Shown here: positions 931 to 62,293 of the stretch, piece by piece | How the letters are laid out: each line of letters starts with the position of its first letter | Numbering within the stretch: position 1 is the first letter of the stretch | Virus record (IMG/VR): IMGVR_UViG_3300031485_000046 | Source of the DNA: a virus | DNA length: 64,000 nt | Direction: 5' to 3' (one strand) | Made by a program: the position numbers and the translations under genes | The notes under the pieces: model-generated | The model's database searches: none | Seen by the model: only the letters and a program-made list of their open reading frames with translations | Told to the model about the DNA's origin: nothing

Positions 931-2346
931 TTATTCTGACTGAATCACATTACCCAACGCATCATAAAACACTATCTTTTCATCCACATGGAGTTTATTC
1001 TTTCCATTATGTCTTCGTATCCTGCTACGGAAATCTTCTATCATCCGATATTTTTTTACGAATTCTTCCATATCTCGTACTACGGGCATATAATCCATAG
1101 TTTTGTTATGAATATGCCATGACAGCAAAGTAGATAAATTGGCGGGCGGAACCTCCTCAGACATACTGAATCGGTACAAAGAATTTGCCCATTTCAGTAT
1201 TGGCGGATTCTTGGTTTTCAATGATTCTGCTAATTCTCTAGCCATTTCGACGAACGCCGGAGGCGTATTGTCGAGGGCTAATGAATAATAAAACCAGCTG
1301 AAAGCTGTTTTAGTACCTTCTTTATCTCTGGATGCAAACTCATTCCAAAGTAGGTTTGGAAGAGATACTTTTCCGGTTTCTTTAGATTTATTCCTACTTG
1401 TAACTGCTGTAAGCAGGAGATTCTTAATCTCTTCCGTTGTCCATTGTTTTCTCAGGTAAACCTGGTCGATCTTAAAGGTTTGGAAGAACTCTCGTAATTC
1501 TTTTCTTGGTTGATTGTTCTTCATGCTGACTATCGGTATTCCCTGCAACAATGCTGAAAGCATCTTGCAGGCGGATTGTATCGTTTTACTCTTTGGATCA
1601 AGGTTATGCTTTGTCACATTTGGAAGAGTATTCCAATAAGAAATTATTTCTGAATTAATATCAGATAAAACACTGGCGGACACGCATGTGTCCGATAAAG
1701 TTTTTATTCTTGTATCTTCTTTAGAAGATACAGGAAGAATAACTTTAGTTATTCTTTTGTATTTGTTTATATGTTTATTAGGTTTATATTGTGCCTCGGT
1801 GTTAGGCGTAATGTTAGCATTGATGTTAGGAGTAATGCTGTGAGTGTCATTTTCGATACTCTGGGCGAAAGCTGTTCGTACAACTGAATCGGTACGTTCA
1901 TTGACCTTTTCTACGGGTTCTGTAGAAGGTGTAAATAGTTCTATCAGCTTCAACGGGTTTATTTTGTACCATTCTTTTGCAGGTAAACCTCTGAATTCCG
2001 ATTGCATTACACCTTTTTGAATAAGGATCTTTTTTGCGTATATCACAAATTGTCCAGAAAGGTGCCCTTTTTCATACAGGTCCTTCTTGGTATAGTAAAA
2101 CCATCCTTTATGATTAGGGTACTTCTGCATGTTATACATACACATTTCAATATACATGGATACAAGTCCAGCAAACATCCATCCGTACTTTTTGACCAAT
2201 TCTTTGTTAACGGTATAATAGCTGATTTTACATACCAGGCGATTCATTATTTCGCATTCCTGTTCGTAAGTCAATTCTTTACATTTACCATATTTCTTTT
2301 GTAAAGATTCAATGGTTATTTTTTTATCTTTTTTTATTTTTTCCAT
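931..2346 (-). CDS. Hypothetical protein; possible replication initiation/replisome organiser (by position upstream of loader)
   Basis: Long ORF; start taken at MEKIKK (ATG 2344-2346); function inferred only from context. Confidence 0.65.
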   Translation of the reverse strand: MEKIKKDKKITIESLQKKYGKCKELTYEQECEIMNRLVCKISYYTVNKELVKKYGWMFAGLVSMYIEMCMYNMQKYPNHKGWFYYTKKDLYEKGHLSGQFVIYAKKILIQKGVMQSEFRGLPAKEWYKINPLKLIELFTPSTEPVEKVNERTDSVVRTAFAQSIENDTHSITPNINANITPNTEAQYKPNKHINKYKRITKVILPVSSKEDTRIKTLSDTCVSASVLSDINSEIISYWNTLPNVTKHNLDPKSKTIQSACKMLSALLQGIPIVSMKNNQPRKELREFFQTFKIDQVYLRKQWTTEEIKNLLLTAVTSRNKSKETGKVSLPNLLWNEFASRDKEGTKTAFSWFYYSLALDNTPPAFVEMARELAESLKTKNPPILKWANSLYRFSMSEEVPPANLSTLLSWHIHNKTMDYMPVVRDMEEFVKKYRMIEDFRSRIRRHNGKNKLHVDEKIVFYDALGNVIQSE

Positions 2347-4137: not shown

Positions 4138-5046
4138 CTAAATCCAACCTAGCAATTCTTTCTTCAAGGCATCCGCGTCAGTTTGTGCCATATCACCGGG
4201 GTCACCTTGTATTTTTATAGAATAGGCATCCACGCCTCTAAGTATAAGTTCCGCAGTCAATTTTTCCGATTGTTTTATTGCCTGCGGATCATCATCGAAT
4301 ACCACAAATACTTTCTTGAACCTTTTGCTTATTTCCCTTACCTGATATTTAGTGTATTTTATCCCAAAAGTAGCAATAGCACCGTACCCAAATCTCCATG
4401 CGTCTGTGACACCCTCCACACAAATGCAAGCATCATAATCCTTAATTGGTATCGCTTGGTAAAATACGTGCTTGTGTTTTACTATCTCTCGTTGTTCTGG
4501 ACACGTTATATAGCGGAGGGAATGCTTGGCAGTAATATCCCTCGTCTGAAAAGACACAATACGATTTTCCCAATAGATGGGAATAACTAATCTGTGGGAG
4601 AATGATATTCCATCCATAAGACTGATAGGACCTGTGCCTTGTACATCCCATATCTTTTCGATTACCTCTGGATTAAACTTTCTTTTGGTAAGGTATCTTT
4701 TATGACGATCGTTCATTGGTGCAGTAGAAGGAGGCAGTCTGAATTTTTTCTGACCGACTCTTACTGTTACAGTAGATTTTACATGACTCTTACCTCCGTA
4801 TTTCCTTGCTATTTCCTTTGCTTCTTTCTCTGATACGTGTATAAGTAGTGCTAGAGCTTTATGGGTCGCTTTCCAACCGCATCTCCAACAGACATAAAAA
4901 TCATCCGCCATATTGTATCCTAAATGCATTCCTGGATTACCAATGCAAAAAGGGCAGGTCGTATTGACCCACCCTTCCCGACAATGTTTATGCCCTTCCG
5001 TAGCAAATGGTACGTTAAAATCCTTGTACAATTGGATTATATTCAC
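4138..5046 (-). CDS. DNA primase (DnaG-like, CHC2 zinc finger plus TOPRIM)
   Basis: HKHCREGWVNTTCPFC zinc finger; TOPRIM motifs CVEGVTDAWRF, VFDDDPQA, GDPGDM; GTG start with AGGAGG RBS. Confidence 0.85.
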   Translation of the reverse strand: MNIIQLYKDFNVPFATEGHKHCREGWVNTTCPFCIGNPGMHLGYNMADDFYVCWRCGWKATHKALALLIHVSEKEAKEIARKYGGKSHVKSTVTVRVGQKKFRLPPSTAPMNDRHKRYLTKRKFNPEVIEKIWDVQGTGPISLMDGISFSHRLVIPIYWENRIVSFQTRDITAKHSLRYITCPEQREIVKHKHVFYQAIPIKDYDACICVEGVTDAWRFGYGAIATFGIKYTKYQVREISKRFKKVFVVFDDDPQAIKQSEKLTAELILRGVDAYSIKIQGDPGDMAQTDADALKKELLGWI

Positions 5047-5551
5047 GGCAATCCTCCTGCATTAGGGCTTTCAGTTCGTTTATCGTATCCCAAATTCTTT
5101 CGTGTGTCCAACCTTTCTCTCTGAGGATGTGGCGCAATTTCCCACGAACTGCTCTACCGCTCATGCTACCATATTCTTCTTGTGCCTCTATAATCATATC
5201 ATATACGATTTTGGCAGAAGGACTCATACGATCCATCTTTTCTTCCCATTCTTCTTTAGCATCTACCGATTCAGGTGATGGTATAGTATATTCCATTTCT
5301 TCATCGAAAAAAGTACATGGAACCTTTTTCTGATGATACAGGTAATTGTTCAGTTTGGATTTTACGCACAAGGCAATCCAATTTATCAATGGTACGTTTT
5401 TATCCGCTTTGTATGTATTCAAGGCAACTGTATAGCCAACTGTAGCCTCAGAAAAAAGTTCCTCAAAATCTACTCCAGAGGTTTTATTGTACGACCAAGC
5501 TAATTTCCTTAGAAAGTTCTGGTACTTTTTATAGGTAGCGGTATCAGTCAC
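5015..5551 (-). CDS. Sigma-70 family-like transcription factor (regions 2 and 4)
   Basis: DFEELFSEATVGYTVALNTYKADKNVPLINWIALCVKSKL resembles sigma region 2; C-terminal HTH-like segment; start placed at GTG 5549-5551 with AGGAGGA RBS. Confidence 0.55.
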   Translation of the reverse strand: MTDTATYKKYQNFLRKLAWSYNKTSGVDFEELFSEATVGYTVALNTYKADKNVPLINWIALCVKSKLNNYLYHQKKVPCTFFDEEMEYTIPSPESVDAKEEWEEKMDRMSPSAKIVYDMIIEAQEEYGSMSGRAVRGKLRHILREKGWTHERIWDTINELKALMQEDCREYNPIVQGF

Positions 5552-5565
5552 AATATATTCCTCCT

Positions 5566-5784
5566 TTAGGATTTTCTGCTGTACTTGTGATGGTGTGGGC
5601 AGTAACAACGCCTATCAGAACGTAACACCAACCAATCCGCTTTTTTAGCACGGAAGACGCATTCTTCAAACGTATCACCAACAAATATCGCCTTGCGTTT
5701 ATACTTGTGGGAAGAGCAATATCTACAATCACATACCATTTCCATGTAGACTCTATCTCCCCACGTCACTCCCACAATAATCAT
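5566..5784 (-). CDS. Small Cys/His-rich protein
   Basis: 72-codon ORF immediately downstream of SNF2 gene; stop inside RBS of next gene. Confidence 0.45.
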   Translation of the reverse strand: MIIVGVTWGDRVYMEMVCDCRYCSSHKYKRKAIFVGDTFEECVFRAKKADWLVLRSDRRCYCPHHHKYSRKS

Positions 5785-11595: not shown

Positions 11596-12162
11596 ATGGC
11601 ATATCGAAAATCAGGGAGACCTTTAGCAGTAGCAGAACCGTGGAATGAATCAATCCCAGAAAGGGCGTATGATCTTTGCCTTCTAGGATTGCGTGATGCC
11701 GATTTAGCCACGGCATTCGGAGTTTCTATATATACCATTGATAAATGGAAACAGACTCATCCAGAGTTTAGAGAAGCACTATCCAGAGGTAAAGAACAAG
11801 CTGACGCTAAAGTGGCAGACGCACTTTACCATAAGGCAGTAGGCTATGCCCATAAAGCTGTGGACATCAGAATAGTTGACGGCGAGGTAGTGAAAATACC
11901 ATACACTAAAATCTATCCACCAGATACTACTGCCTGCATATTCTGGTTGAAGAATAGGCAAAGACAGTACTGGACGGATACCAAGCAAAATGTTCATACT
12001 GGTACAGTGGGTGTGGAACATACTATGAGACGTCAACTTGACCTTTCTGATTTCTCCAAAGAAGAACTTGCCCTAGCAGAAAAACTAGCCTCTAGGATGC
12101 TTCAGGAGGGTACTCAGGATGCAGAGTTTACAGAAGAGGGGGAGAATGACGGGGATGAGTAA
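11596..12162 (+). CDS. terS: Terminase small subunit
   Basis: Immediately upstream of and overlapping terL; RBS AAAGGAG; family assignment is recalled resemblance to HTH-type small terminases. Confidence 0.7.
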   Translation: MAYRKSGRPLAVAEPWNESIPERAYDLCLLGLRDADLATAFGVSIYTIDKWKQTHPEFREALSRGKEQADAKVADALYHKAVGYAHKAVDIRIVDGEVVKIPYTKIYPPDTTACIFWLKNRQRQYWTDTKQNVHTGTVGVEHTMRRQLDLSDFSKEELALAEKLASRMLQEGTQDAEFTEEGENDGDE

Positions 12163-13714
12163 ATATGAACGTAAGGACGCCTTAAAACGCCAAAGAGAAA
12201 ACATCATCCCAAAATCAGATAGGTTCCAAGCATTACTTTTGAACCCATTGCAGATAAAAGCAGAAAAATGCCGTAGGTCCCTATTTGAATTTATGAAAGA
12301 ATTCTGGCCAGAAGTATCCACAAGTGACCCTACATGGAATTGGCATCTAGAATACCTAGCTAACGAACTGGAAAGGATGATGTATAGAGTAGCAAACAGA
12401 CAACCAAAAGAATACGACCTCATAATAAACATAAGCCCCGGTACCACAAAGTCTACCCTATGTTCCATAATGCTGAATGCATGGGTGTGGGCTAAATGGC
12501 CTTGGCTCCGATTCATCAACGCATCCTATTCTGGAGCCCTATCTCTGGAACATTCAGAATTGTGTCGTGACCTTATACGGTCAGAACGATACAAAAGGTT
12601 ATTCCCGTATTTGGAAATAAAGCAAGACAAGGATACCAAAACTAACTTTAAAATTTTATATGATGAAGAGCGTCTGGATTCCATAACAGGCGAAGCATCT
12701 ACACTAAAAAAGAGTGGTGGTAACAGATACTCCACCTCCGTAGGCGGCACCTTGACTGGATTCCATGCTGATGTACTGTTAGTAGACGATCCATTGGATC
12801 CGCAAAGAGCTGTATCCGACGTGGAAGTCCTTAAAGCCAACACATGGATAGATCAGACACTATCTACCAGAAAGGTAGATAAAGCGGTAACACCAACCAT
12901 AATCATAATGCAAAGGCTCCATCAGAATGACCCTACGGGTTATCTGCTATCCAAGAAGAATAAAAAGATAAAGCATATCTGCCTACCAGGTGAAATACGG
13001 AATTACAGGAAAAATTTGAAACCTAAAGCCCTAGCCAAGTATTATAAGGATGATCTGTTCGACCCTATAAGAATGCCATGGAAAGTCCTTGACGACCTAA
13101 GAGTAGACCTTGGTGAATTCGGGTATGCTTCCCAGATCGGCCAATCCGCAGTATCAGACAAGGGCAACTTATTCAAGGTAGAACACTTTCAAATCATCCA
13201 TAGTATGGTACCAGACCCAGACATAGTAAGATCCATACGATACTGGGACAAAGCCGGTACAGCTGGAGCTGGAGCATACACGGTGGGGGTACGAATGCTT
13301 GCATTGAATAATGGAAAATTCCTTATCACGGATGTTAAAAGAGGGCGGTGGTCCACAGAACAACGGGAAGCCATCATCAGACAGACTGCAGAAGCCGACG
13401 GTACAGACACAATAATCTGGCATGAACAAGAACCAGGTTCAGGCGGAAAAGAATCCGCAGAAGGCACTATAAGAAACCTAGCTGGATACACCACGTATGC
13501 AGATAGGGTAACTAGAAACAAGGAAATGAGAGCGGATCCATATTCAGTCCAAGTAAATAATGGTAACGTACTGTTACTATATGCTCCGTGGAACCAAGAC
13601 TTCATAGAAGAGCACAGATACTTCCCAAATTCAACATATAAGGATCAGGTAGACGCAGCCTCAGGAGCGTTCTCTAAGGCAGTACGGAAAAAGATAGCCG
13701 GTGCGATAGGATAA
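12155..13714 (+). CDS. terL: Terminase large subunit (ATPase plus RNase H-like nuclease)
   Basis: N-terminal ATPase region; C-terminal nuclease-domain pattern (IRYWDKAGTAGAGAY...DQVDAASGAF); start at ATG 12155 with RBS, overlapping terS stop. Confidence 0.9.
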   Translation: MSKYERKDALKRQRENIIPKSDRFQALLLNPLQIKAEKCRRSLFEFMKEFWPEVSTSDPTWNWHLEYLANELERMMYRVANRQPKEYDLIINISPGTTKSTLCSIMLNAWVWAKWPWLRFINASYSGALSLEHSELCRDLIRSERYKRLFPYLEIKQDKDTKTNFKILYDEERLDSITGEASTLKKSGGNRYSTSVGGTLTGFHADVLLVDDPLDPQRAVSDVEVLKANTWIDQTLSTRKVDKAVTPTIIIMQRLHQNDPTGYLLSKKNKKIKHICLPGEIRNYRKNLKPKALAKYYKDDLFDPIRMPWKVLDDLRVDLGEFGYASQIGQSAVSDKGNLFKVEHFQIIHSMVPDPDIVRSIRYWDKAGTAGAGAYTVGVRMLALNNGKFLITDVKRGRWSTEQREAIIRQTAEADGTDTIIWHEQEPGSGGKESAEGTIRNLAGYTTYADRVTRNKEMRADPYSVQVNNGNVLLLYAPWNQDFIEEHRYFPNSTYKDQVDAASGAFSKAVRKKIAGAIG

Positions 13715-14370: not shown

Positions 14371-14688
14371 CATGTGGTAACCTTACCTCCATCCTTACCA
14401 TCACCTATACCACCATTCATCTGGATCTAATCTGCCTATACCCATATTTAATCTATGGTATTTAATAAATGGACACCATATTTCATAAATGGATAGCCAA
14501 AACCATACAAGCCATATCCTATTCCGTATTCCAATCCAATATATAGATACCTATACCTCCACTTCACCATGTACTGGGAAACCCAGTAATTGGTATAAAA
14601 AAATGGGACCTAAGTGTGGTAACCTAGATTTATCTATGTATGATCGTTTATATAGTGAAACCGAGATTTATACCTATTATTTTGTCCT

Positions 14689-15080
14689 CCACTATACCAA
14701 TACGGTGGTATGCTGGATTGTAATCAGGAAATTCAAATACGGAGTAGACCTCGATGTTTTACTATGTATATATAGAACGTATCTTTATAACAGTACCTAC
14801 CAACTATCCACTACGGTGGTGTGTTGGATTGTACTTATAAATATGTGGAAAATAGAAAATGGGAGGTATTTCGATGTTTTACTATGTAGAACCGACGGTC
14901 TGTTTTTGTCAGGAATCTTCCAACTATCCACTACGGTGGTATATTGGGAGATACTTACCGAAACGTGTATGATATGAAATGGGAGGTATTTCGATGTTTT
15001 ACTATGCATATATAGAGATATTGATTGGTTCCCATTTACCCTATATCTTACCCAGTATCCACTACGGTGGTATGTTGGGT
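14689..15080. repeat. Four direct repeats, period about 120-130 bp, with conserved cores CCACTACGGTGGT and GGGAGGTATTTCGATGTTTTACTATG
   Basis: Core copies at about 14689, 14801, 14921, 15051; second core at 14751, 14871, 14991. Confidence 0.7.
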
Positions 15081-15168
15081 AGTATTAATCCGTAGTATGG
15101 GTAGGTACTGTCTAGATTGTTTATCTATATATAGAGAATGAATAAGGTGTGTCCATTCCCAAAATACC

Positions 15169-15697
15169 TCAGGCCCTCCATTATCTAGAATTTTCCCCAA
15201 TTATAAAAATTTGTCAACCTCTGGCAGCTAAATGGAGTATAAGTATCCTACGGATACATGTATAAAAATGAAATCTTGGACACGTATCCAACGGATTATT
15301 TTATAAAAATGGGATTGGATTATTTTTATTTATACAGGTTCAATTTGAGAAAATGCACCTGTTTGAGTTTTCGATGGGTAATTGGTATAACAATAGTTGG
15401 ATTATATAAAAACGGTATGGGATAATACCAGACCCGTTTTGAAGGCATAAATTGCATAAATCAGTTCCGTTTATTTTTTTATTTCCTATGGATGGTACCG
15501 AATATTTCGAGGAGAAAAGGAATCCATAAAAATCATACGAGGTTTTTCATGCTACCTAATCCAAAATACGTGGCGAATTTTCGGCTCCGTAATCGTTTTT
15601 CTAGAGGTGAGCGGTGAATTCATACCGGTAGAAAATGAGCGCCTTCTAGCGCACCGCTGGCGGAGAAACTCATTGGCGGAGAAACTGGCGGAGAAAA
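15169..15697. repeat. Non-coding element B: TCAGGCCCTCCATT box (15169-15182) and three GGCGGAGAAA(C/A) repeats (15659-15669, 15675-15685, 15687-15697)
   Basis: Homologous end motifs and spacing to element A (2881-3398). Confidence 0.6.
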
Positions 15698-15748
15698 TGG
15701 ATGGATTTTTCTGTTTTTCTGTTTTTCTGATTGTTGTACATCGTTTCT

Positions 15749-15797
15749 ACATTCTACATTCTACATTCTACATTCTACATTCTACATTCTGCATTTC
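15749..15797. repeat. Heptanucleotide tandem repeat ATTCTAC, about 7 copies
   Basis: Direct read of sequence. Confidence 0.75.
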
Positions 15798-16019
15798 AGA
15801 AGAATGCATGTGGTACTTTATAAGATGCATGTATGCAATGTCATATGCATCCTTAATTGTCTCCTGATTACTATACAATTATACACTATTCCTATTCCTG
15901 TTTCAATCGTAACAGATATTTTACTATTATATAATAATCTATAGTATTGTGTCATATTGTAGAATATTCTTATATTCATGAATATCAGACAAGCATAATG
16001 CAGAATGCATATTATACAA

Positions 16020-16213
16020 TGCATTATTCAGCTATATTTTTCACAAGCATTTTTTAGTAGTACAATGCATAATGCAGAATGCATCATGCATTATTCAATG
16101 AAACATTTCACAAGTGTTCATACAGTGCATACAATACATTCTGCATCATGCATCATGCATTATTCAGCTATATTTTTCACAAGCATTTTTTAGTAGTACA
16201 ATACATTCTGCAA
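16020..16213. repeat. Two copies of a 50-bp direct repeat (16021-16070, 16157-16206) plus three copies of TTCAATGAAAYATTTCACAAG
   Basis: Direct read of sequence; repeats about 136 bp apart. Confidence 0.6.
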
Positions 16214-16439
16214 TATGCATTGTATAGCATGTATTATTCAATGAAACATTTCACAAGTGTTACTGTATCCGAAGAGTATACAATGCATTTTTCAATGAAA
16301 TATTTCACAAGCGATACTGTGATCGAATTGTATCTGAATGACTATACAATTCACTATTATTTTATAAAACTCTATAGTATTGCAGAATACAGTAGAATTC
16401 AGTAGAATTATATTAAGTGTATAGTCTTTTCATGCATAG

Positions 16440-16467
16440 TTGACATTCTATCGTAGAGTGCTATACT
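16440..16467 (+). promoter_or_regulatory. Sigma-70-type promoter for three-gene cassette
   Basis: TTGACA (16440-16445), 16-nt spacer, TATACT (16462-16467). Confidence 0.5.
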
Positions 16468-16584
16468 GTACTCGTAGCAAGCGAGCGAGCAAGTTCTTTG
16501 ACAACTGAAGAAGCAAGCTCATAACAGAGTAACACTTCTTCAGAACATACGCGCACAACGTTGCGCAGAAAGAGAGTGTGTAGC

Positions 16585-16923
16585 ATGACAACGAGCAGCA
16601 AGAAGAACGTAAACAGTAAGAAAGCTGAAATAGTCGAACAGAAAGCAGTTGAAGTAAAGAAAGAAGAAGTAAGAGAAGCAAAGAAGATTAGCAATACTCA
16701 GAAGTGTGCTGATATGATCATGCAACTTGCGAAAGACGCTAAGTATACTCGCAGTGAAATTTGTAATGCTGTTTCAGATGCACTAACAGCATTAAGCATA
16801 GTCACAGTAAAGACTATGCTTTCAGACTTGCAGAACAGCAAGTATGCAAGACGTTATAGCACTCATACTATCGCAGTAAACAAAGAAACAAAGATTGTAA
16901 CAGTAGCAAGTGAGATAAAATGA
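16585..16923 (+). CDS. Hypothetical lysine-rich protein (cassette gene 1)
   Basis: ATG at 16585 downstream of promoter; 5' leader contains 9-bp inverted repeat CTGAAGAAG/CTTCTTCAG (16503-16545). Confidence 0.55.
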   Translation: MTTSSKKNVNSKKAEIVEQKAVEVKKEEVREAKKISNTQKCADMIMQLAKDAKYTRSEICNAVSDALTALSIVTVKTMLSDLQNSKYARRYSTHTIAVNKETKIVTVASEIK

Positions 16924-17132
16924 AGTATCAGCATGTTGAACGTTCGCAAGCTCTCGCAGTAAGTGACGTTGAAACTTTGCAGAATATTGCAAAAAGACGT
17001 CTGATCGATTTGAAACAGCTTGCAAGAGAAGCAGACTCTTTACTTGTCTTTTCAGTAATAAGAAATACATGTATTCAAATCGATCGAAGCATCGATGATG
17101 CACTTGAAAACGCAAGAAAATTACTGAAGTAG
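16920..17132 (+). CDS. Hypothetical protein (cassette gene 2)
   Basis: ATGA overlap with upstream stop. Confidence 0.5.
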   Translation: MKYQHVERSQALAVSDVETLQNIAKRRLIDLKQLAREADSLLVFSVIRNTCIQIDRSIDDALENARKLLK

Positions 17133-17141
17133 TACAAAAAA

Positions 17142-17185
17142 AGATAGTCAAGTATCTACAATTCGATACTTGACTATCTTTTTAT
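17142..17185 (+). terminator. Rho-independent terminator
   Basis: Perfect 15-bp stem AGATAGTCAAGTATC/GATACTTGACTATCT, 8-nt loop, T-rich tail. Confidence 0.6.
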
Positions 17186-17208
17186 CTCATTTGAAAGAGA
17201 GTGATACT

Positions 17209-17532
17209 ATGTTAGATAATCAGTATGAATTACATCAAAAGATACAAAAAATAGAACACAAGCATATCAGATTACATGCAAGCAATTGTATGTACAAATT
17301 GATGAATATTCAATTGTTACTTGAAGAACAGATTAATCTACTCATTTCTGATATTGTAGCAAATGATGCTTCTGTTAGTGAAATATTGCTAACAGAACGT
17401 CAAAGTACATTTGATAATGAACTTTTTGCGATAACGACAAAAGAAGATAGAAAAGCAATAGCAATACTGCATAATACTATAATCGATAGTATGAATGCAG
17501 TAAGAAAGACAATCATCTATACAGACGAATAA
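17209..17532 (+). CDS. Hypothetical protein (cassette gene 3)
   Basis: ATG at 17209 (MLDNQYELHQ) after weak RBS; ORF track start at 17170 lies inside the terminator. Confidence 0.5.
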   Translation: MLDNQYELHQKIQKIEHKHIRLHASNCMYKLMNIQLLLEEQINLLISDIVANDASVSEILLTERQSTFDNELFAITTKEDRKAIAILHNTIIDSMNAVRKTIIYTDE

Positions 17533-17574
17533 AATTACACAATAGAGCATAATTGATAGCAATTGAATAGAAAA

Positions 17575-17612
17575 GAGTAGTCAATACTAGACTACTCTTT
17601 TCTTTTTTATTC
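17575..17612 (+). terminator. Rho-independent terminator
   Basis: Stem AGAGTAGTC/GACTACTCT, 7-nt loop, T-run. Confidence 0.6.
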
Positions 17613-17750
17613 ATGCATACAATGCATGATGCATCCTGCACTATGCATAGTATAAGCGTTCATAGTAGCATTTGATAACATAACACTACACTATTTATTA
17701 CAATTAGACAATATACTACAATATGATAGTGTAGTGTGTATTGTCTATTC

Positions 17751-17794
17751 TATACACTACAATATAGACAAGTATACACTACAATATAGACAAG
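17751..17794. repeat. Tandem 22-bp direct repeat TATACACTACAATATAGACAAG (2 copies), flanked by inverted repeat ACACTACACTAT/ATAGTGTAGTGT
   Basis: Direct read of sequence. Confidence 0.6.
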
Positions 17795-17998
17795 TATAGA
17801 ATAGAGTATAATAATCTATAGTATGCTACACTATATAGCAATATAATATAATAATATATAATTGTATAGTAAAGCAGATACAATTCAATACAATGACTGC
17901 GCTAGTATACAATGCATGATGCATGATGCATCGTACACAATGCATAATGTAAAATCGATTTTACACGTTGCAGAATGCATGCTGGCTCCTGGCCCCCT

Positions 17999-18152
17999 CT
18001 AAAATTGTGACAAATTTTTCTGGATATTAAAATGGGTAATCCATTATTTTCTAAAGCATATTCATTATTTATTCTACGTATCTTTCACACACCCCTCGTA
18101 AAATTGCTACTGATTTTTCCCAATACTAAAGTGGGTAATCCATTATTTTCGA
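17999..18152. repeat. Two copies of about 55-bp element ending in TGGGTAATCCATTATTTTC (promoter-like)
   Basis: Copies at about 17999-18052 and 18094-18150; degenerate third at about 18340-18375. Confidence 0.55.
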
Positions 18153-18414
18153 TATATCTATTCTGTATGACTGTATAGATAGTATAAGATGCAGTATCCA
18201 ATTTTAACTAATGGATTAATATACCCAATTTACTCATACTATACGTATCTTCATGGATCCGTTTTCTTTCGTCTTTATTTTTACCATACCCCGTCATTCT
18301 GTATGAATTTATCCAAAAATAACCGCATAAATATTTTGTAAAAATTTATATGGGAGTTAAAATGGGTTGATTAGATCAGTAGAGAGGTTAGATCACACTA
18401 GGGAGTTAGATACG

Positions 18415-18452
18415 ATGCATCCTAGCCCGGATCCTGATAGGCTAGGATGCAT
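18415..18452. other. Perfect 13-bp inverted repeat (stem-loop) ATGCATCCTAGCC / GGCTAGGATGCAT with 12-nt loop
   Basis: Direct read of sequence; no T-run follows. Confidence 0.5.
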
Positions 18453-18674
18453 ATAGAAACTATGTTTGTCGTAATATATCTTGAAAACGCATCAGATTCG
18501 TTTCATACTGTGCGATTTCCTTGCTTATGGAAGCTGTTCGTTCTGTTTCAGACGTTGTTTCTATCGTCTAGAGTGAAAAAGATCGAATACCGTGCAAGGA
18601 TTTAACGTGTCATGCCATCCCATTCGGTTGTTCCCTCCGTCCTTGCGACTTTCCTATAAGGGATGGAAACCGGG

Positions 18675-18893
18675 TCATTTCGCCCGCTCCTCCCAGAACC
18701 GTCTGCGTCGCTCCTCCCTGTGACGCTTGATATTCTCCCGCACCCTCTGCGTGCGGGGCGGGAACGTGTTCAGATGGGTCAGCACCGGCTCCACGCTGAC
18801 AGCTCTGCCGAATTCCCTCTCCCATTCCTGGGCGTAGATTTCCTCGTAGGATAACATTTCGCGAAATCTGAGCCCCGTGCATCGTCCGCTCAT
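18675..18893 (-). CDS. Small basic, arginine-rich protein encoded in a GC-rich patch
   Basis: ATG overlaps stop of KdsB-like gene (ATGA); local composition visibly GC-richer than surroundings. Confidence 0.4.
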   Translation of the reverse strand: MSGRCTGLRFREMLSYEEIYAQEWEREFGRAVSVEPVLTHLNTFPPRTQRVRENIKRHREERRRRFWEERAK

Positions 18894-19684
18894 TCCTTAC
18901 CCTCCTTTTTTTCTATAATTTCATCATATTCATTTTCTTTACCAGAGTTTATTATACAACGAACAGCTTCCAAATCAGCAGGAGTATCTACACTAGGTCC
19001 AACTTTTTTTGCTCTTGTTATTTCTACTTTAATGGAAAAATCATGTTCTAATATTCTGAGCTGTTCCAGTGATTCTGCTGATGCCAAAGGTGTTTGTGGC
19101 ATTTTGGCATAATAATGGATTAAGAAACGTCTAGTAAATCCATAAATTCCTATATGTCGGTAGATGGGATATACTTCTTCCGGATCTCTAATAAAAGGGA
19201 TAGGAGACCTACTGAAATATAAAGCATCTCCATTTATTCTGAATGCCACTTTTACTACCGATGGATCATTGATAGTAGCGGTATCTGTAATAAGGGCACA
19301 TATCGTAGCAGATTCCGTAGCCCTATTTTCAGTTTTATAAAATAATGATATTACTTCATCAATCATACAAGGATTAAGTAATGGTTCATCCCCTTGTATG
19401 TTTATCACTATATTATTATTAGAGAATTTTTTAGCTATTTCCACAACTCTACTAGTTCCGTTTGTATGATTTGGAGAAGTTAGCATAGCTTCTCCACCGA
19501 AATTATTTACAGCCTGCACGATTCTTTCATCGTCAGTAGCTACAATCAACCGGTCAAGTAAAGTAGATCGTGAGGCTCGCTCGTACACTCTCTGGATCAT
19601 TGTTTTTCCGCATATATCAGCTAGAGGTTTACCGGGGAGCCTTGTAGAATTGTATCTAGCGGGGATAACTCCTAAAGTTATCAT
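18890..19684 (-). CDS. kdsB: CMP-Kdo synthetase-like cytidylyltransferase (3-deoxy-manno-octulosonate cytidylyltransferase family)
   Basis: IPARYNSTRLPGKPL, VATDDE, GGE, QGDEP, ALYFSR, HIGIYGF, LEQLR, VDTPADLE match KdsB signature blocks as recalled. Confidence 0.85.
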   Translation of the reverse strand: MITLGVIPARYNSTRLPGKPLADICGKTMIQRVYERASRSTLLDRLIVATDDERIVQAVNNFGGEAMLTSPNHTNGTSRVVEIAKKFSNNNIVINIQGDEPLLNPCMIDEVISLFYKTENRATESATICALITDTATINDPSVVKVAFRINGDALYFSRSPIPFIRDPEEVYPIYRHIGIYGFTRRFLIHYYAKMPQTPLASAESLEQLRILEHDFSIKVEITRAKKVGPSVDTPADLEAVRCIINSGKENEYDEIIEKKEGKE

Positions 19685-21095: not shown

Positions 21096-22556
21096 GTGAG
21101 TAGGATAGAAAATATCAGTACCAACGAATTGGTTGGGCAATTACAGCGGATTACAGCTATGGCTGAACTGGCTACAAGAATGAATGTCGGTGCTAGGATG
21201 GGAATGCAGTATGACGGCCAACGGGATATTGCAAAAGCTCTTGGCTACCCACAAACAATACGGTACAACGACCTCCTTGCCGCATATACCCGTCAGGATA
21301 TGGCGAAAGCCATTATAGATCGTCCCGTAAAATCTACTTGGCGTGGAGATTTCAAGCTAGTAGAAACCCACAGGGACGATGATACGCAACTCGAAACAGC
21401 TTGGTCTACATTATATAGGAAATTGCACATAAAACAGAATTTCCTTAGAGTGGACAAGCTAGCCTGCCTCGGTAATTATGCTCTTCTTTTTCTTGGTTTC
21501 AATGATGTGAATAGTCCTGAAGAATTGATACGACCTGTTTCTGCTGGAGTAGGACGTGAATTGCTGTATTTGAAACCGTTTGGACAGAATGTCATTCAGA
21601 TCAAAGATTGGGAAGATGATACAAGTTCACCTGAATATGGAATGCCGCTTATTTATGAAGTAGACATTGGAGAAGCATCATCTAAAAAGAGCCGAACTGT
21701 CAGCATCCATCGGTCAAGGATTGTTCATGTAGCTTTCGACCTACTTGAATCAGAGTATGAAGGTGCTCCTGTTCTAGAAGTTGTTTTTAACCGTCTGAAA
21801 GACCTTGAAAAGCTAGTAGGCGGTTCTGCTGAAATGTTCTGGAGAGGTGCTAGACCTGGATATGCAGGTAAAATTGATCCAGAATACATGCTGACGAAAG
21901 ATACGGAAGAGGGATTGAAACGCCAGCTGGATGAGTTTGAAAATAATCTGCGAAGGATACTCATGCTTGAAGGTGTTACACTCGATAGCCTTGAGCCGCA
22001 GGTAGTTGACCCGTCTATGCACGTTGATATCCAGATTCAGATGATTTCTGCTATTACTGGTATTCCTAAGAGAATTCTTACAGGAAGTGAGCGAGGTGAT
22101 CTTGCTTCTACGCAAGACAAAGATAACTGGCTCGACCTTATCCAAATGCGACGGGAAGAATATGCTGAACCTAAGATCATTCGAGCAACCATTGACCGTT
22201 GTATTGAATTTGGTGTGCTTCCTAAGCCTGAAAAGGAAACATACAAAATAAAATGGCAGGATCTTTATGCACCGTCTGTTAAGGATCAAGCGGACATTGG
22301 GCAGATACGTTCGCTTGCCTTGAAACATTATACGTACAATCCTGAAGCAGAGCAGTTTATCCCGTTTGAAGCGTTCCTTACATTCTTCCTTGGTTTGGAA
22401 GATGAGGAAGTGGAGTATATCAAAAAGCTCCAGCAAACAAGTGAAAGGATATTGACGCCTGAATTAAAGGAACTTGCGAATGAAAATGCACCAACACGGA
22501 GAGAACGCCCTCCGCGGAGAGGAATACCTCGAGAGGATGAAGAACTAGAAAAGTGA
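21096..22556 (+). CDS. Portal protein
   Basis: Size and position (first gene of head module after terminase region); GTG start abuts RBS so true start may be downstream. Confidence 0.75.
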   Translation: MSRIENISTNELVGQLQRITAMAELATRMNVGARMGMQYDGQRDIAKALGYPQTIRYNDLLAAYTRQDMAKAIIDRPVKSTWRGDFKLVETHRDDDTQLETAWSTLYRKLHIKQNFLRVDKLACLGNYALLFLGFNDVNSPEELIRPVSAGVGRELLYLKPFGQNVIQIKDWEDDTSSPEYGMPLIYEVDIGEASSKKSRTVSIHRSRIVHVAFDLLESEYEGAPVLEVVFNRLKDLEKLVGGSAEMFWRGARPGYAGKIDPEYMLTKDTEEGLKRQLDEFENNLRRILMLEGVTLDSLEPQVVDPSMHVDIQIQMISAITGIPKRILTGSERGDLASTQDKDNWLDLIQMRREEYAEPKIIRATIDRCIEFGVLPKPEKETYKIKWQDLYAPSVKDQADIGQIRSLALKHYTYNPEAEQFIPFEAFLTFFLGLEDEEVEYIKKLQQTSERILTPELKELANENAPTRRERPPRRGIPREDEELEK

Positions 22557-52029: not shown

Positions 52030-53304
52030 TTAATCCTCCTTAGCATCCATACAATCGTCCCATTTCGCACAATCATCACATTCATCATATTCTTCACAAT
52101 CTTTTCCGAATACATGACCGTGCGGACACTTGTTCTTTCCAGCTTTCTTATTTACCTTTTCTTCTTTCTTTCCCTTTTTAGCAGGTTCTTCTTTCAGTTT
52201 CTTTCTACCAGTACCATCACAGGGATTGCATACGCCCCCTCTAGAATTCTTACCAGTACCCTTGCAAGCCACACATTTTTCCTTTTCCGGAATATCTTCC
52301 TCTTCTTCCTCTTCTTCTACTTCATCATCATCTTCATCATCGTCCGTATCCTCTTCATCCTCCTCTTCTTCATCTTCGTCATCCGTATCTTCATCCTCAT
52401 CTTCGTCAGAGATGTCGTCCTCGTCCTCGTCATCCTCGTCAGAAGAATCATCAGCATCGTCTTCATCCTCTTCGTCAGGATCAGCCTCTTTCTTTTTCTT
52501 GGATTTCATCATACTACGGACAGAAGTTCCATCTTCTTCTTCGTCATCCTCAGTTTCATACTCAAAGAATTTAGCTTCCAGCTCATTATACGTAAGCACC
52601 TGAAGAATCTCATCCAGATTAGGAACATCTTTCAGATCCTTTTCCTTATATGGCTTTTCACGTTCTTCAAAATCAATTCTGGAGGTAGCGGCGTACTTAT
52701 TCTTACCAAACTGTTCCTCGCTGAAACGAATCTTGAGAGTAAGCCCTTCATCAGGATCAGGGAATACAGCATTCGTATCATCTTCTTCAAGTTCCTCATT
52801 CAGCTTATCCTGAAAAAGATACTGCGAAATATCCCAAATATGAGGTTTCTTTTCGTGATCCTTTGAATTCAGAGGCACCACTACGTACAAGTTCCGAAGA
52901 GAAGGCTTGAGTGCCTTCAGTTCATCGTCTTCCGCATCTCCATCTTTCACTCGCTTAGCTCGATGTTCGCAGATAGGACATTTCTTACCGAAAGTTGTGA
53001 GGCAGACAAAGGTTTCCTTATTTGCCCCTATTCCGCGATGTACTTTATACGGCTTCTTATACCACTGCTCTCCAACAGTAGCAATACCAAGATCCACATT
53101 CTTATCCATATGCTTTGGGTCTGTAACAGTATATGGAAGAATGTCGAGTGATACTCTAGAACCCGGCTCTTCTTTGAATACTCGAATATTTTTAGGCAGA
53201 TTCAGATATCCGTATTTAGAACCTTGTGCTTTCTGCTGTTTCACATTACCAGCAACTGCCGCCCTGAATTTGCTGTTACTGCCCTTTTTTCCAAGTTTAG
53301 CCAT
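52030..53304 (-). CDS. Putative ssDNA-binding protein with long acidic D/E tract and Cys-rich C-terminus
   Basis: Position in replication module; zinc-ligand-like CPICEH; function inferred. Confidence 0.55.
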   Translation of the reverse strand: MAKLGKKGSNSKFRAAVAGNVKQQKAQGSKYGYLNLPKNIRVFKEEPGSRVSLDILPYTVTDPKHMDKNVDLGIATVGEQWYKKPYKVHRGIGANKETFVCLTTFGKKCPICEHRAKRVKDGDAEDDELKALKPSLRNLYVVVPLNSKDHEKKPHIWDISQYLFQDKLNEELEEDDTNAVFPDPDEGLTLKIRFSEEQFGKNKYAATSRIDFEEREKPYKEKDLKDVPNLDEILQVLTYNELEAKFFEYETEDDEEEDGTSVRSMMKSKKKKEADPDEEDEDDADDSSDEDDEDEDDISDEDEDEDTDDEDEEEEDEEDTDDDEDDDEVEEEEEEEDIPEKEKCVACKGTGKNSRGGVCNPCDGTGRKKLKEEPAKKGKKEEKVNKKAGKNKCPHGHVFGKDCEEYDECDDCAKWDDCMDAKED

Positions 53305-57328: not shown

Positions 57329-58590
57329 CCTATGTACCCTCCTTGCTGAATCCATCGCATTTGTTTAGATGCTAACCGGTAAGTGAACAAACTATCCATA
57401 CCACAGTATATCAATAGTTTATTCCAAATATCAGATCCTACAGGAACATCAAGCAATTTGTTCATGGAATTGCTATCTTTATCATCCGCCCCTTTAAGAT
57501 ATGGAGCGACCTCATCATCATACCCTGCTACACCAAAATTGATATAGGTTTGTATCTTCAATCCTGTGATGTCTGGTCTGTTATCAAGAATGTGTGTAGC
57601 CAACATAGTATCCCATATCCAGTTTTTTACTTCATACCCCAGAATATTTTGTGTCCATGTGTGTTCAAACTTCAGATTTTGGGCAATCTTTCCTATCTTG
57701 TCTGATTGCAAAATTTCCTTAAGCAGTCTATTTCCTTTCTTACTTTTAGGCATCCCAAAAACTATTGCATCTTCAGGATTACTACACATGGACATGCAGA
57801 TGATTTTGTGCTTGCTTGTATCATGCGGTTTAAGGCCCGTCGTTTCATAATCAATAGCAATAGAAAACGGAAACTTTCTAGAAAGAAACTCTTCAAAAAT
57901 TCCTACTAGCTCACTTTCTGATTTTACTATCTTGATAGCCGTCATTTCATCTGGATATGTTTGCATAGACATGTCCACTGTATTTAATGCCCTGTCAAGG
58001 TCCTGTTTCCATACTGTTCGATATTCCTGTGCATCTTGTTTTTCTACAAACTCTGGATGAAATATCGGGCAGATCCACGTATTGTATTTCCTATCTGGAA
58101 TAGTAAATCCTCTCCATTTATTCATTCCACCTAAATTCTTTGTCCAGATAGAACCTATCACGGAGTTTAATGCTAGTTCACCTACAAGAATTATCACTTT
58201 AGGTTTATACTGCTCAATAGTAGATAGCACTCTTCGTCGGCAACATTGAACTTCTTTTGTCCACGGATTGGTGGTTTCCTTGGACCCTGAAGCATAGCAA
58301 GACAAAGCAAAGAGATTCAGACAGTCTTTGAACAAATCAACGCCTCTACGTTCAAATTCTCGCCTAAGCGTTGTTCCAAATCTGTCTTGCCACGGTTTGC
58401 CTACTCGATCATCTCTACTGCTTGGCATATCACCAATGACCATTATTTTCTTTTCAAATTCCCCGAATGGTGCCATTCTAGGAGACGAAATATCTTTATA
58501 CAACCCACAAGAAGCGCAAGAGAAAGCCTTATTACCACTAGGCCTAGTTTTAGATTTAGTTTCTTCTACTGAAAAGAATCCACTAGCCAT
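57319..58590 (-). CDS. DNA polymerase A accessory subunit: UDG-like domain plus 3'-5' exonuclease domain
   Basis: N-terminal CASCG and IMVIGDMPS (family-4 UDG-like, variant motif); Exo I IDYETTGL; separate ORF overlapping pol subunit by 10 nt. Confidence 0.85.
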   Translation of the reverse strand: MASGFFSVEETKSKTRPSGNKAFSCASCGLYKDISSPRMAPFGEFEKKIMVIGDMPSSRDDRVGKPWQDRFGTTLRREFERRGVDLFKDCLNLFALSCYASGSKETTNPWTKEVQCCRRRVLSTIEQYKPKVIILVGELALNSVIGSIWTKNLGGMNKWRGFTIPDRKYNTWICPIFHPEFVEKQDAQEYRTVWKQDLDRALNTVDMSMQTYPDEMTAIKIVKSESELVGIFEEFLSRKFPFSIAIDYETTGLKPHDTSKHKIICMSMCSNPEDAIVFGMPKSKKGNRLLKEILQSDKIGKIAQNLKFEHTWTQNILGYEVKNWIWDTMLATHILDNRPDITGLKIQTYINFGVAGYDDEVAPYLKGADDKDSNSMNKLLDVPVGSDIWNKLLIYCGMDSLFTYRLASKQMRWIQQGGYIGCN

Positions 58591-61176: not shown

Positions 61177-61178
61177 TT

Positions 61179-62292: not shown

Positions 62293-62293
62293 C

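What the first reader, a model, noticed from the sequence alone, without database searches (positions are those of the whole stretch)
17620..17960. ATGCAT-dense and palindromic segment
The segment carries many closely spaced ATGCAT hexamers (for example AATGCATGATGCATCCTGCACTATGCATAG and AATGCATGATGCATGATGCATCG), a 12-bp inverted repeat ACACTACACTAT/ATAGTGTAGTGT and a 22-bp tandem duplication. Clustering of a palindromic hexamer suggests an array of binding sites for a dimeric DNA-binding protein, or a structured origin.
Basis: seen in the sequence. Interest (0 to 1): 0.4.

Follow-up and report, generated by a model that had tools for sequence, protein, structure and literature searches.

The report
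Phased ATGCAT heptad arrays in phage
The segment carries arrays of a short palindromic DNA word repeated exactly every 7 bases; these arrays are conserved in a group of uncultivated phages, where they bracket a small early-gene cassette, and most likely serve as docking sites for a phage DNA-binding protein.

Summary
ATGCAT occurs 7 times in 17620-17960 (9 in 17600-17990), against about 1.2 expected from the segment's own dinucleotide content and 0.1 from the rest of the window.

The true unit is a 7-bp heptad, N-A-T-G-C-A-T, with a constrained core T-R-Y-A and a free spacer. Runs of four or more contiguous phased heptads occur 7 times in the 64-kb window, all within 15748-17979. Shuffles give a mean of 0.01.

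The window is a lytic-type phage. The arrays lie in a hypervariable island between terminase and portal. They flank a cassette driven by a near-consensus sigma-A-type promoter. The only universal gene in that cassette encodes an orphan 112-aa winged-helix protein with a basic disordered tail.

24 related metagenomic loci were fetched. Every one with enough flank keeps arrays on both sides of this gene. Meanwhile the other cassette genes and the centre of the segment are swapped, duplicated or deleted.

Best reading (0.4): cooperative operator or roadblock arrays for the winged-helix protein, autoregulating and insulating the early cassette. A replication origin is weaker, because the iteron/AT-rich centre is not conserved. 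A P1-like pac site is not excluded.

This is a new variant of a known kind of element.

The parts
15745..15795 (.). TTCTACA x7.3 tandem array. It amounts to 7 contiguous 7-bp-phased T-R-Y-A cores (TACA x6, then TGCA).
15993..16315 (+). Five tandem 54-74-bp units. Each holds a heptad array followed by TTATTCA..TTTCACAAG. The phased arrays are at 15999-16023, 16066-16090, 16135-16159 and 16202-16233, with a single site at 16283. In three units a sigma-70-like -35/-10 pair (TTCACA or TTTTCA, 17 bp, TACAAT) abuts the array; these are consensus matches only.
16326..16351 (.). Inverted-repeat element AATTGTAT-N10-ATACAATT. Further copies are at 15855-15880 and 17860-17885.
   Evidence: D9, I4, I22; read directly from the sequence
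16432..16467 (+). A single ATGCAT (16432-16437) abutting the -35 of the cassette promoter, TTGACA-16-TGcTATACT (16440-16467). In relatives the promoter and a T-R-Y-A site at this position are both kept.
16585..16923 (+). Gene for a 112-aa protein: a disordered K/E-rich tail (residues 1-35) plus a winged helix (residues 37-110). It is the only gene of the cassette present in all relatives and is the candidate array-binding protein.
16920..17532 (+). Variable cassette genes (70 aa at 16920-17132; 107 aa at 17209-17532), with a terminator hairpin at 17138-17183. In relatives these genes are replaced by other small genes or are absent.
17569..17603 (+). Terminator hairpin that closes the cassette. 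It is conserved in all relatives and is followed immediately by array L.
17607..17654 (.). Heptad array L: ATGCAT at 17613, 17622, 17629 and 17643, with a phased run of 5 at 17623-17654. It is an inverted copy of the upstream array module (91% complementary to 16061-16092).
   Evidence: (I5)
17683..17794 (.). Second motif family: the 12-mer A[CT]ACTACA[CA]TAT, five copies (17683, 17713, 17754 and 17776 direct; 17726 inverted). It occurs nowhere else in the window. It includes the exact 22-bp duplication at 17751-17794, which relatives carry as a single copy.
17840..17863 (.). 24-nt run of A and T only. It is present in the window's sub-lineage; in the other sub-lineage the longest such run is 8-9 nt.
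17904..17980 (.). Heptad array R: 11 heptads, with ATGCAT at 17912, 17919, 17926, 17940 and 17975, and phased runs at 17906-17951 (n=7) and 17962-17979 (n=3). It contains the 18-bp palindrome TGTAAAATCGATTTTACA (17948-17965). Relatives have TGCAAAATCGATTTTGCA there, so the two changes in the window are symmetric.
17981..17999 (.). GC-rich box GCTGGCTCCTGGCCCCCTC, still in heptad register. The core TCCTGGCCCC is invariant in all relatives. Together with 17938-17980 it forms the most conserved block of the segment.
17993..18367 (+). Repeated promoter-like units TTGTGAC-17-TAAAAT-GGG at 17993-18051, 18092-18150 and 18336-18367. Copy number varies among relatives. Their function is unknown and they may not belong to the same system.
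   Evidence: (D8, D11)

Best explanation
The ATGCAT copies are the best-matching members of arrays of 7-bp-phased sites. The consensus is N-A-T-G-C-A-T and the constrained core is T-R-Y-A.

Seven such arrays lie within 2.2 kb. They bracket a strongly promoted early-gene cassette in the accessory island between terminase and portal of a lytic-type phage with Firmicute-like expression signals.

Most likely the arrays are cooperative binding sites for the first and only universal product of that cassette, a 112-aa winged-helix protein with a basic disordered tail. On contiguous 7-bp sites, successive protein units would sit about 240 degrees apart and coat the DNA helically, as the omega repressor does on its heptads.

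Proposed effects:
- Upstream, binding would cover the -10/+1 regions of promoter-like units and a site abutting the -35 of the main promoter. This would give negative feedback or shut-off of the cassette.
- Downstream, arrays L and R start right after the cassette terminator. They would act as a roadblock or insulator, or would pair with the upstream arrays in a loop, sealing the swappable cassette off from its neighbours.

Shown: the arrays exist, are phased and are core-constrained; they are exclusive to this locus; they co-occur with the gene in all relatives; the protein is predicted to be a winged helix; the promoter and terminator are conserved.

Inferred: that this protein binds the arrays, and what the binding does.
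For: Phasing and specificity:
- TGCA spacings of 7, 14, 21 and 28 dominate.
- There are 7 runs of four or more contiguous phased T-R-Y-A heptads, all within 15748-17979. 200 block shuffles give a mean of 0.01.

Selection on the core, not the spacer: in a 10-sequence alignment, heptad positions 3-6 are conserved while positions 1-2 vary (GATGCAT, TCTGCAT, CTTGCAC, ATTGCAC). A logo from 159 heptads gives nATGCAt.

The island evolves fast but keeps the arrays:
- 15.7-18.6 kb is 66-87% identical between phages whose terminase and portal are 90-96% identical.
- Indels occur in whole heptads. L042 has a 48-column gap (almost seven heptads) across array R in the alignment.

Linkage to the gene:
- Arrays are found both upstream and downstream of the winged-helix gene in every fetched locus with enough flank, except the upstream side of L027/L028, which is broken by a run of N.
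- Almost none occur in the remaining roughly 125 kb of those loci (one array, just outside the search window), and none in 86.6 kb of more distant terminase relatives that lack the gene.
- The gene is the only universal member of the cassette.
- The minimal natural variant L052 has just this gene, the terminator and the arrays.

The protein:
- The AlphaFold2 model has pLDDT above 90 for a helix-helix-helix-strand-strand winged helix.
- The Foldseek hits are nearly all winged-helix domains, most of them DNA-binding (Fur/PerR, SarX, CzrA).
- The recognition-helix and wing residues are invariant across 42 homologues, while the tail varies.

Promoter geometry: the near-consensus promoter at 16440-16467 has a site abutting its -35, conserved in relatives.

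Precedents:
- Four or more contiguous 7-bp heptads are the functional unit for omega/ParB of pSM19035 (PMC9499535).
- In an unrelated viral contig, an ATGCATT heptad array lies just upstream of a CI/LexA-like repressor gene.
Against: - No binding or expression data exist.
- The textbook binders of 7-8-bp tandem sites are ribbon-helix-helix proteins, not winged helices. Foldseek gives only generic fold-level matches (best E = 0.087).
- The relatives form one fairly close lineage, so co-occurrence of gene and arrays is not phylogenetically independent evidence.
- The T-R-Y-A definition was derived from these data. However, the strict ATGCAT statistics stand on their own.
- Arrays downstream of a terminator are not where simple operators sit.
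- The promoter-like hexamers next to the upstream arrays are only consensus matches, and only 3 of the 5 units have a -35 at 17 bp.
- The symmetric double change in the 18-bp palindrome hints at a hairpin or other dyad-dependent element, which simple tandem binding does not explain.
Confidence: 0.4

Rival explanations
1. Replication origin or replication-control locus. The arrays and 12-mers would be iterons for an origin-binding protein, either the winged-helix protein or the O-like initiator. The A/T-only tract would be the unwinding element. The binding-protein gene flanked by site arrays would mirror iteron replicons such as P1 (incC-repA-incA).
For: - Five 12-mers are spaced 22-41 bp apart.
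- There is a 24-nt A/T-only run.
- The 396-nt segment has strong dyad symmetry: its single-stranded DNA fold has z = -4.8, with array L pairing with array R.
- Promoters lie nearby.
- The phage encodes an O-like initiator and a DnaC-like loader, so it needs an initiator-type origin.
- The segment lies in a large non-coding zone near a switch of gene orientation.
Against: - The 12-mers and A/T tract are confined to one sub-lineage. They are replaced in L030/L033/L034 and deleted in L052.
- The O-like gene has its own internal repeats plus an AT-rich stretch (1760-1837), which is the classical lambda arrangement.
- A 75-residue winged helix has no obvious helicase-recruiting part.
- A period of 7 bp is unusual for iterons.
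Confidence: 0.2
2. Packaging recognition site of the P1 type. Two clusters of a palindromic hexamer (4 + 5 here; HEX4 + HEX3 in P1) would be bound by terminase subunits and would flank the cut site.
For: - The architecture resembles P1 pac: seven TGATCA/G hexamers in two clusters around an IHF site and the cleavage site (PMC10028697).
- The segment lies 3.9 kb downstream of terL, in the same non-coding island.
- The invariant block next to array R, with its GC-rich box, could be a cut site.
Against: - The same arrays occur five or more times upstream of the cassette, which a single pac site does not need.
- The centre between the clusters is dispensable (L052).
- Pac sites usually lie in or next to terS.
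- Contig ends of 12 related short contigs scatter and show no fixed terminus.
- Several assemblies read straight through the region.
Confidence: 0.08
3. Sites for a host protein (a nucleoid-associated or global regulator), or a decoy that titrates one. The phage winged-helix protein would have another job.
For:
- T-R-Y-A steps are flexible DNA (established knowledge of pyrimidine-purine steps).
- The winged-helix family is an orphan, so nothing ties it biochemically to the motif.
Against: - The host is unknown. No known Firmicute regulator with an ATGCAT heptad site was found in the literature search.
- The tight physical linkage of arrays and gene, down to the minimal variant, is more simply explained by a cognate pair.
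Confidence: 0.12
4. Recombination scaffolds or neutral slippage products. Conserved repeat blocks would merely mark the borders of a hyperplastic region and promote cassette exchange, as PeSL promoter-terminator motifs do in T4-type phages. Alternatively they would be microsatellite-like expansions without function.
For: - The cassette content is swapped between relatives while the promoter, terminator and array borders are kept.
- Copy-number changes occur in whole units of 22 bp, 48 alignment columns (almost seven heptads, L042) and about 245 bp.
- PeSLs provide the precedent (PMC2839356, PMC4122927).
Against: - Slippage homogenises whole units, spacer included. Here the spacer varies and only the core is kept.
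- Arrays persist in otherwise non-homologous sequence in the second sub-lineage.
- A recombination role does not exclude protein binding, and may depend on it.
Confidence: 0.1
5. A structured RNA or single-stranded DNA element, in which the heptads pair with each other because ATGCAT is self-complementary.
For: - The single-stranded DNA fold of 17600-17995 has z = -4.8.
- The 18-bp palindrome shows one symmetric (compensatory-type) double change in the window lineage.
Against: - The RNA fold of array R is not better than shuffles (z = -0.7).
- No Rfam family matches.
- The variation pattern (free spacer, fixed palindromic core) is not covariation.
- The long L-R pairing is lost when the centre is replaced or deleted, and it arises automatically from any two arrays of a palindromic word.
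Confidence: 0.05

Closest known systems
Omega (ParB) heptad arrays of plasmid pSM19035 (Firmicutes)
   Same: Both are contiguous 7-bp repeats, in direct and inverted orientation, in arrays of about 4-10. In pSM19035, at least four contiguous heptads are needed for function (PMC9499535). From my own knowledge, those arrays sit at promoters and each heptad is read by one dimer.
   Different: From my own knowledge, the omega heptad core is WATCACW and is not palindromic. The binder there is a ribbon-helix-helix protein working with a ParA ATPase as a centromere. Here the candidate binder is a winged helix, no ParA was found among the ORFs scanned, and the replicon is a lytic-type phage.
MetJ metboxes and Fur hexamer arrays (from my own knowledge; Fur DNA-binding domains are among the Foldseek hits)
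   Same: Both are tandem short palindromic or near-palindromic units (8-bp AGACGTCT; 6-bp GATAAT) read cooperatively by successive dimers. Fur is a winged-helix protein that spreads over extended hexamer arrays.
   Different: The periods are 8 and 6 bp rather than 7. Both are host metabolic regulators with cofactor control. There is no sequence relationship to the 112-aa protein, only the generic fold.
Phage P1 pac site (HEX4/HEX3)
   Same: Two clusters of a palindromic hexamer flank a central segment, in a phage (PMC10028697).
   Different: The P1 hexamers carry Dam sites, lie inside pacA and occur once in the genome. Here the arrays recur seven times around a gene cassette, and the centre is dispensable.
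Iteron replicons with the rep gene flanked by site arrays (P1 incC-repA-incA, F; from my own knowledge)
   Same: The gene for a winged-helix DNA-binding protein is flanked on both sides by arrays of short repeats, with promoter overlap and possible pairing between arrays.
   Different: Iterons are about 19-22 bp, spaced by helical turns. Rep proteins have two winged-helix domains. Replication function was not tested here, and the origin-like centre is not conserved.
Autoregulated early accessory operons (acr-aca type) and PeSL-bounded hyperplastic regions of T4-type phages
   Same: A strong early promoter, hypervariable small genes, one conserved small DNA-binding protein, and conserved promoter/terminator borders (PMC2839356, PMC4122927). 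The acr-aca comparison is from my own knowledge.
   Different: The regulator gene comes first rather than last. The sites are long heptad arrays rather than a single inverted repeat. No anti-defence function has been shown for the cassette genes.

Membership tests
Omega-type heptad operator/centromere (pSM19035) | Arrays of at least four contiguous 7-bp repeats | tested here: met
   7 arrays of 4-7 contiguous phased heptads. They are conserved in relatives.
Omega-type heptad operator/centromere (pSM19035) | Ribbon-helix-helix binder encoded nearby | tested here: not met
   Pfam and PHROG scans of the cassette proteins give no ribbon-helix-helix family. The only universal neighbour is modelled as a winged helix. 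The 70-aa neighbour was not modelled and is absent from some relatives.
Omega-type heptad operator/centromere (pSM19035) | Partner ParA-type ATPase | tested here: not met
   No ParA-like family was found among about 45 ORFs scanned with PHROGs or Pfam. Not every small ORF was scanned.
Iteron-type replication origin | Direct repeats plus an adjacent A/T-rich unwinding element, conserved with the replicon | tested here: not met
   12-mers and a 24-nt A/T run are present in the window. They are absent or replaced in L030/L033/L034 and deleted in L052.
Iteron-type replication origin | Origin activity (replication start, initiator binding) | not testable with these tools
   This needs marker-frequency data, 2D gels or plasmid replication assays.
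P1-type pac site | Two hexamer clusters flanking a cleavage site | tested here: inconclusive
   Two clusters exist (4 + 5 ATGCAT). The cleavage site is unknown, and the centre is dispensable in L052.
P1-type pac site | Unique site in or next to the terminase genes; genome termini or a packaging series start there | tested here: not met
   The arrays recur seven times over 2.2 kb and lie 2.0-4.3 kb downstream of terL. Contig ends of relatives scatter. Read-level terminus mapping was not possible.
Autoregulated early accessory operon (acr-aca-like) | Strong promoter, variable small genes and one conserved DNA-binding protein in one operon | tested here: met
Autoregulated early accessory operon (acr-aca-like) | The regulator represses its own promoter through sites overlapping it | not testable with these tools
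   A site abuts the -35, and arrays overlap promoter-like -10 hexamers. Repression itself needs reporter assays.
Known RNA families (Rfam 15) | Match at the gathering score | tested here: not met
   There are no matches at gathering score in the window. Only chance-level hits appear at E up to 1 in 15600-18700.

The most novel reading that the evidence does not exclude
A winged-helix protein with a histone-like basic tail polymerises on 7-bp-phased palindromic sites. This would be an omega-like helical protein coat built from a different fold. The arrays on both sides of its gene would pair to form a closed, insulated 'landing pad' in which early accessory (possibly anti-defence) genes are freely exchanged between phages. 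That would be a new type of phage cassette insulator or exchange module, found in more than 100 metagenomic protein clusters but in no cultured phage.
Probability: 0.15. Interest if true: 0.7.

Novelty: new variant of a known kind. Interest (0 to 1): 0.45.

Why it matters
Short-period tandem site arrays read by chains of small proteins are known from a handful of systems: omega, MetJ and Fur. This would add three things:
- a new word (nATGCAt, core T-R-Y-A);
- a new candidate reader, an orphan winged-helix family with a basic tail;
- a new setting, the borders of a hypervariable early-gene cassette in an uncultivated, apparently lytic phage lineage with Firmicute-like signals.

If the pairing of protein and arrays holds, it gives a compact, portable regulator/operator pair. 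It also gives a handle for finding early accessory cassettes (host-takeover or anti-defence genes) in metagenomic phages. The claim is directly testable with one small protein and a few oligonucleotides.

Tried and rejected
Similarity searches that found nothing:
- Megablast of 15000-19000, blastn of 17540-18060 and tblastn of the 112-aa protein against 50,697 deposited phage genomes: no match.
- The exact 21-mer AATGCATGATGCATGATGCAT in IMG/VR: 0 hits.
- Rfam at gathering score and at E up to 1: nothing credible. tRNA scan: none.

Protein identification:
- Pfam, PHROGs and PDB sequence searches of the cassette proteins found no family.
- Foldseek against PDB gave only generic winged-helix hits.
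- A profile search of 1.84 billion representatives found only 7 clusters below 1e-10. The remote hits carry no informative Pfam domain.
- The scan of 185,579 species-representative genomes returned only one 2.7-kb scaffold, binned as Methanolobus. That is probably a binning error, so it gives no host clue and no prophage copies.

Ideas considered and rejected:
- A Bacteroidota host was suggested by the nearest terminase relatives. It was rejected because genes carry strong AGGAGG ribosome-binding sites and TTGACA/TATAAT-type promoters.
- A fixed genome end in the region: contig ends scatter, and the window ends share no repeat.
- Avoidance of ATGCAT elsewhere in the genome: 17 observed against 18.6 expected, so there is none.
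- A coding explanation: only short, unconserved ORFs overlap the segment, and relatives differ by a 22-bp and a roughly 245-bp indel.
- The two ATGCAT at 18415 and 18447 are simply the stem of a hairpin. In L027/L036 the stem is kept with a different sequence, so these two copies are not part of the arrays.

Full report
**1. The observation**

The sequence is as described. ATGCAT lies at 17613, 17622, 17629 and 17643, and at 17912, 17919, 17926, 17940 and 17975.

The 12-bp inverted repeat is at 17683-17694 and 17726-17737. The exact 22-bp tandem duplication is at 17751-17794.

Seven copies fall in 17620-17960. Dinucleotide-preserving shuffles of the segment itself give 1.19 (0 of 2000 reach 7). 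The rate in the rest of the window predicts 0.098 (P = 1.6e-11).

**2. What the unit is**

Written in heptads, the right array reads AGTATAC AATGCAT GATGCAT GATGCAT CGTACAC AATGCAT AATGTAA AATCGAT TTTACAC GTTGCAG AATGCAT.

I aligned ten distinct relatives. Heptad positions 3-6 (T-R-Y-A, mostly TGCA) are conserved. Positions 1-2 vary freely. A logo of 159 heptads from 33 arrays gives nATGCAt.

In the 64-kb window there are seven runs of four or more contiguous phased T-R-Y-A cores, all within 15748-17979. 200 block shuffles give a mean of 0.01. The TTCTACA x7 repeat at 15745-15795 belongs to the same class, with TACA cores.

I derived the T-R-Y-A rule from these data. However, the strict ATGCAT statistics and the replication in relatives do not depend on it.

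**3. The setting**

The window is a phage.
- Terminase small and large subunits are at 11596-13714, the portal at 21096-22556, and structural genes follow on the + strand.
- The - strand carries a full replisome: an O-like initiator, a DnaC-like loader, primase, helicase, a split polymerase, clamp and clamp loader, UvsX/UvsY-like proteins and an SSB.
- It also carries a sigma factor and QueC/DpdA-like genes.

Genes have AGGAGG ribosome-binding sites and TTGACA/TATAAT-type promoters. I therefore infer a Firmicute-like host, even though the nearest deposited terminases come from Bacteroidota phages.

More distant relatives (terminase 34-59% identical) have the portal right after the terminase. 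They have no arrays.

In this lineage a 7.4-kb island sits between the two genes. Its left 4.8 kb is repeat-rich and almost non-coding. The exception is one cassette: promoter 16440-16467 (TTGACA-16-TGcTATACT), three small genes (16585-17532), and terminators at 17138-17183 and 17569-17603.

**4. Relatives**

The first cassette protein (112 aa) has 114 homologous clusters, all metagenomic and mostly on short contigs.

I fetched 24 loci. They are syntenic: terS, terL, non-coding DNA, this gene plus variable small genes, non-coding DNA, small genes on the - strand, then portal.

- Terminase and portal are 90-96% identical in DNA to the window. The stretch 15.7-18.6 kb is only 66-87% identical, and parts of it are unalignable.
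- The 112-aa gene is the only cassette gene present everywhere.
- Every locus with enough flank has arrays upstream and downstream of it, except the upstream side of L027/L028, which is interrupted by a run of N. Almost none occur in the remaining roughly 125 kb.
- Array length changes in whole heptads. L042 has a 48-column gap, almost seven heptads, across array R in the alignment.
- The centre of the finding segment comes in two unrelated versions.
- In L052 the centre is deleted between two ATGTATC repeats. That leaves the gene, terminator, arrays, palindrome and GC box within about 300 bp.
- The best-conserved block in all relatives is 17938-18010. It holds the last heptads, the 18-bp palindrome, TCCTGGCCCC and TAAAATTG.

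**5. The candidate reader**

The AlphaFold2 model, built from a 42-sequence alignment, gives a disordered K/E-rich tail (residues 1-35). Residues 37-110 form a confident winged helix (pLDDT above 90).

Foldseek finds only generic winged-helix domains (Fur/PerR, SarX, CzrA, CAF-1, cullin), with a best E of 0.087.

The family is narrow and unannotated. It is absent from deposited phages. Among species-representative genomes it appears on only one scaffold, which is probably mis-binned.

Recognition-helix and wing residues are invariant, while the tail varies. This matches the invariant DNA word but does not prove a link.

**6. Mechanism**

I commit to the following, at 0.4 confidence. The arrays are cooperative sites for this protein.

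- Upstream, they overlap the -10/+1 regions of promoter-like units, and one site abuts the -35 of the main promoter. This would give feedback shut-off.
- Downstream, arrays L and R begin 4 nt after the cassette terminator. They would act as a roadblock or insulator, or as looping partners. Array L is an inverted copy of the upstream module, 91% complementary over 32 nt.

The closest mechanistic precedent is omega on its heptads, where at least four contiguous 7-bp repeats are required (PMC9499535).

A side observation supports an operator role for this word. In an unrelated viral contig, an ATGCATT heptad array lies directly upstream of a CI/LexA-like gene.

**7. Rivals**

- Origin (0.2). The centre looks origin-like in the window: 12-mers, a 24-nt A/T run, and dyad symmetry with a single-stranded DNA fold z of -4.8. 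But these features are lineage-specific and dispensable. The O-like gene also has its own internal repeats.
- P1-like pac site (0.08). Two hexamer clusters resemble HEX4/HEX3 (PMC10028697). But the arrays recur seven times, and no fixed ends are seen.
- Host-factor sites (0.12), recombination scaffolds or neutral slippage (0.1; PeSL precedent), and an RNA or single-stranded DNA structure (0.05; RNA fold z = -0.7; no Rfam match).

The one symmetric double change in the 18-bp palindrome (TGCA...TGCA to TGTA...TACA) remains unexplained by simple tandem binding.

**8. Verdict**

The feature is real, conserved and non-coding. The binding-site reading is supported by the pattern of constraint. The origin reading is weakened.

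It is a new variant of a known kind of element: short-period tandem site arrays. It has a new word, an orphan candidate reader and an unusual placement around a swappable early cassette. Interest is moderate, 0.45.

Noticed in passing
window 14685-15090: Four copies, spaced 110-130 bp apart, of a hairpin-like motif (CCAAC..TATCCACTACGGTGGTAT..TTGG) inside a 120-bp tandem repeat. The 162-aa ORF over it (14489-14977) has an odd Y/C/W-rich composition and is probably not coding, although it is 93% conserved in L027.
   Followed up: partly
window 15658-15729: Two more short tandem repeats just left of the heptad arrays: TGGCGGAGAAAC x3 and TTTTTCTG x3.
   Followed up: no
window 17993-18367: Repeated promoter-like units (TTGTGAC-17-TAAAAT-GGG, each followed by a T-rich stretch) at 17993, 18092 and 18336. 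Copy number varies from 2 to 4 among relatives. They point towards convergent - strand genes, and no ORF follows them.
   Followed up: partly
window 18415-18452: A perfect 13-bp-stem hairpin (ATGCATCCTAGCC ... GGCTAGGATGCAT). In L027/L036 the stem is kept with a different sequence, which is compensatory. A well conserved non-coding block follows at 18500-18610.
   Followed up: partly
window 1760-1837 (inside the gene at 931-2421, - strand): The O-like replication initiator gene contains three 12-bp-spaced CCTAACA-type repeats followed by an AT-rich stretch. This is a lambda-like origin-within-the-initiator-gene candidate.
   Followed up: partly
window 60205-62436, 5015-5608, 55511-58590: QueC-like and tRNA-guanine-transglycosylase (DpdA)-like genes suggest 7-deazaguanine DNA modification. 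There is also a phage sigma factor (Sigma70_r2) and a DNA polymerase split into two ORFs.
   Followed up: no
window 18890-19684 (- strand): A cytidylyltransferase (CTP_transf_3, E = 1.5e-56) sits in the right half of the accessory island. Relatives carry other genes at the same place, such as an N6/N4 DNA methyltransferase or Thy1.
   Followed up: no
L017 830-907, 2603-2683, 6281-6300; L022 2811-2860, 6008-6095; L016 3231-3250, 4094-4113: Unrelated IMG/VR contigs also carry ATGCATN heptad arrays in intergenic DNA, several per contig. In L017 one array lies just upstream of an HTH + Peptidase_S24 (CI/LexA-like) gene. The word may be a recurrent operator grammar in phages.
   Followed up: partly
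L052 2100-2330: A natural minimal variant. The cassette holds only the winged-helix gene, and the roughly 245-bp centre between arrays L and R is deleted between two ATGTATC repeats.
   Followed up: yes
window 52295-52473 and 62837-63027 (- strand genes): Long runs of 9-15-bp tandem repeats (TCTTCCTCT, TTCGTCTTCATCGTC) inside coding regions. They correspond to acidic low-complexity tracts in the SSB-like protein and in a 305-aa protein.
   Followed up: no
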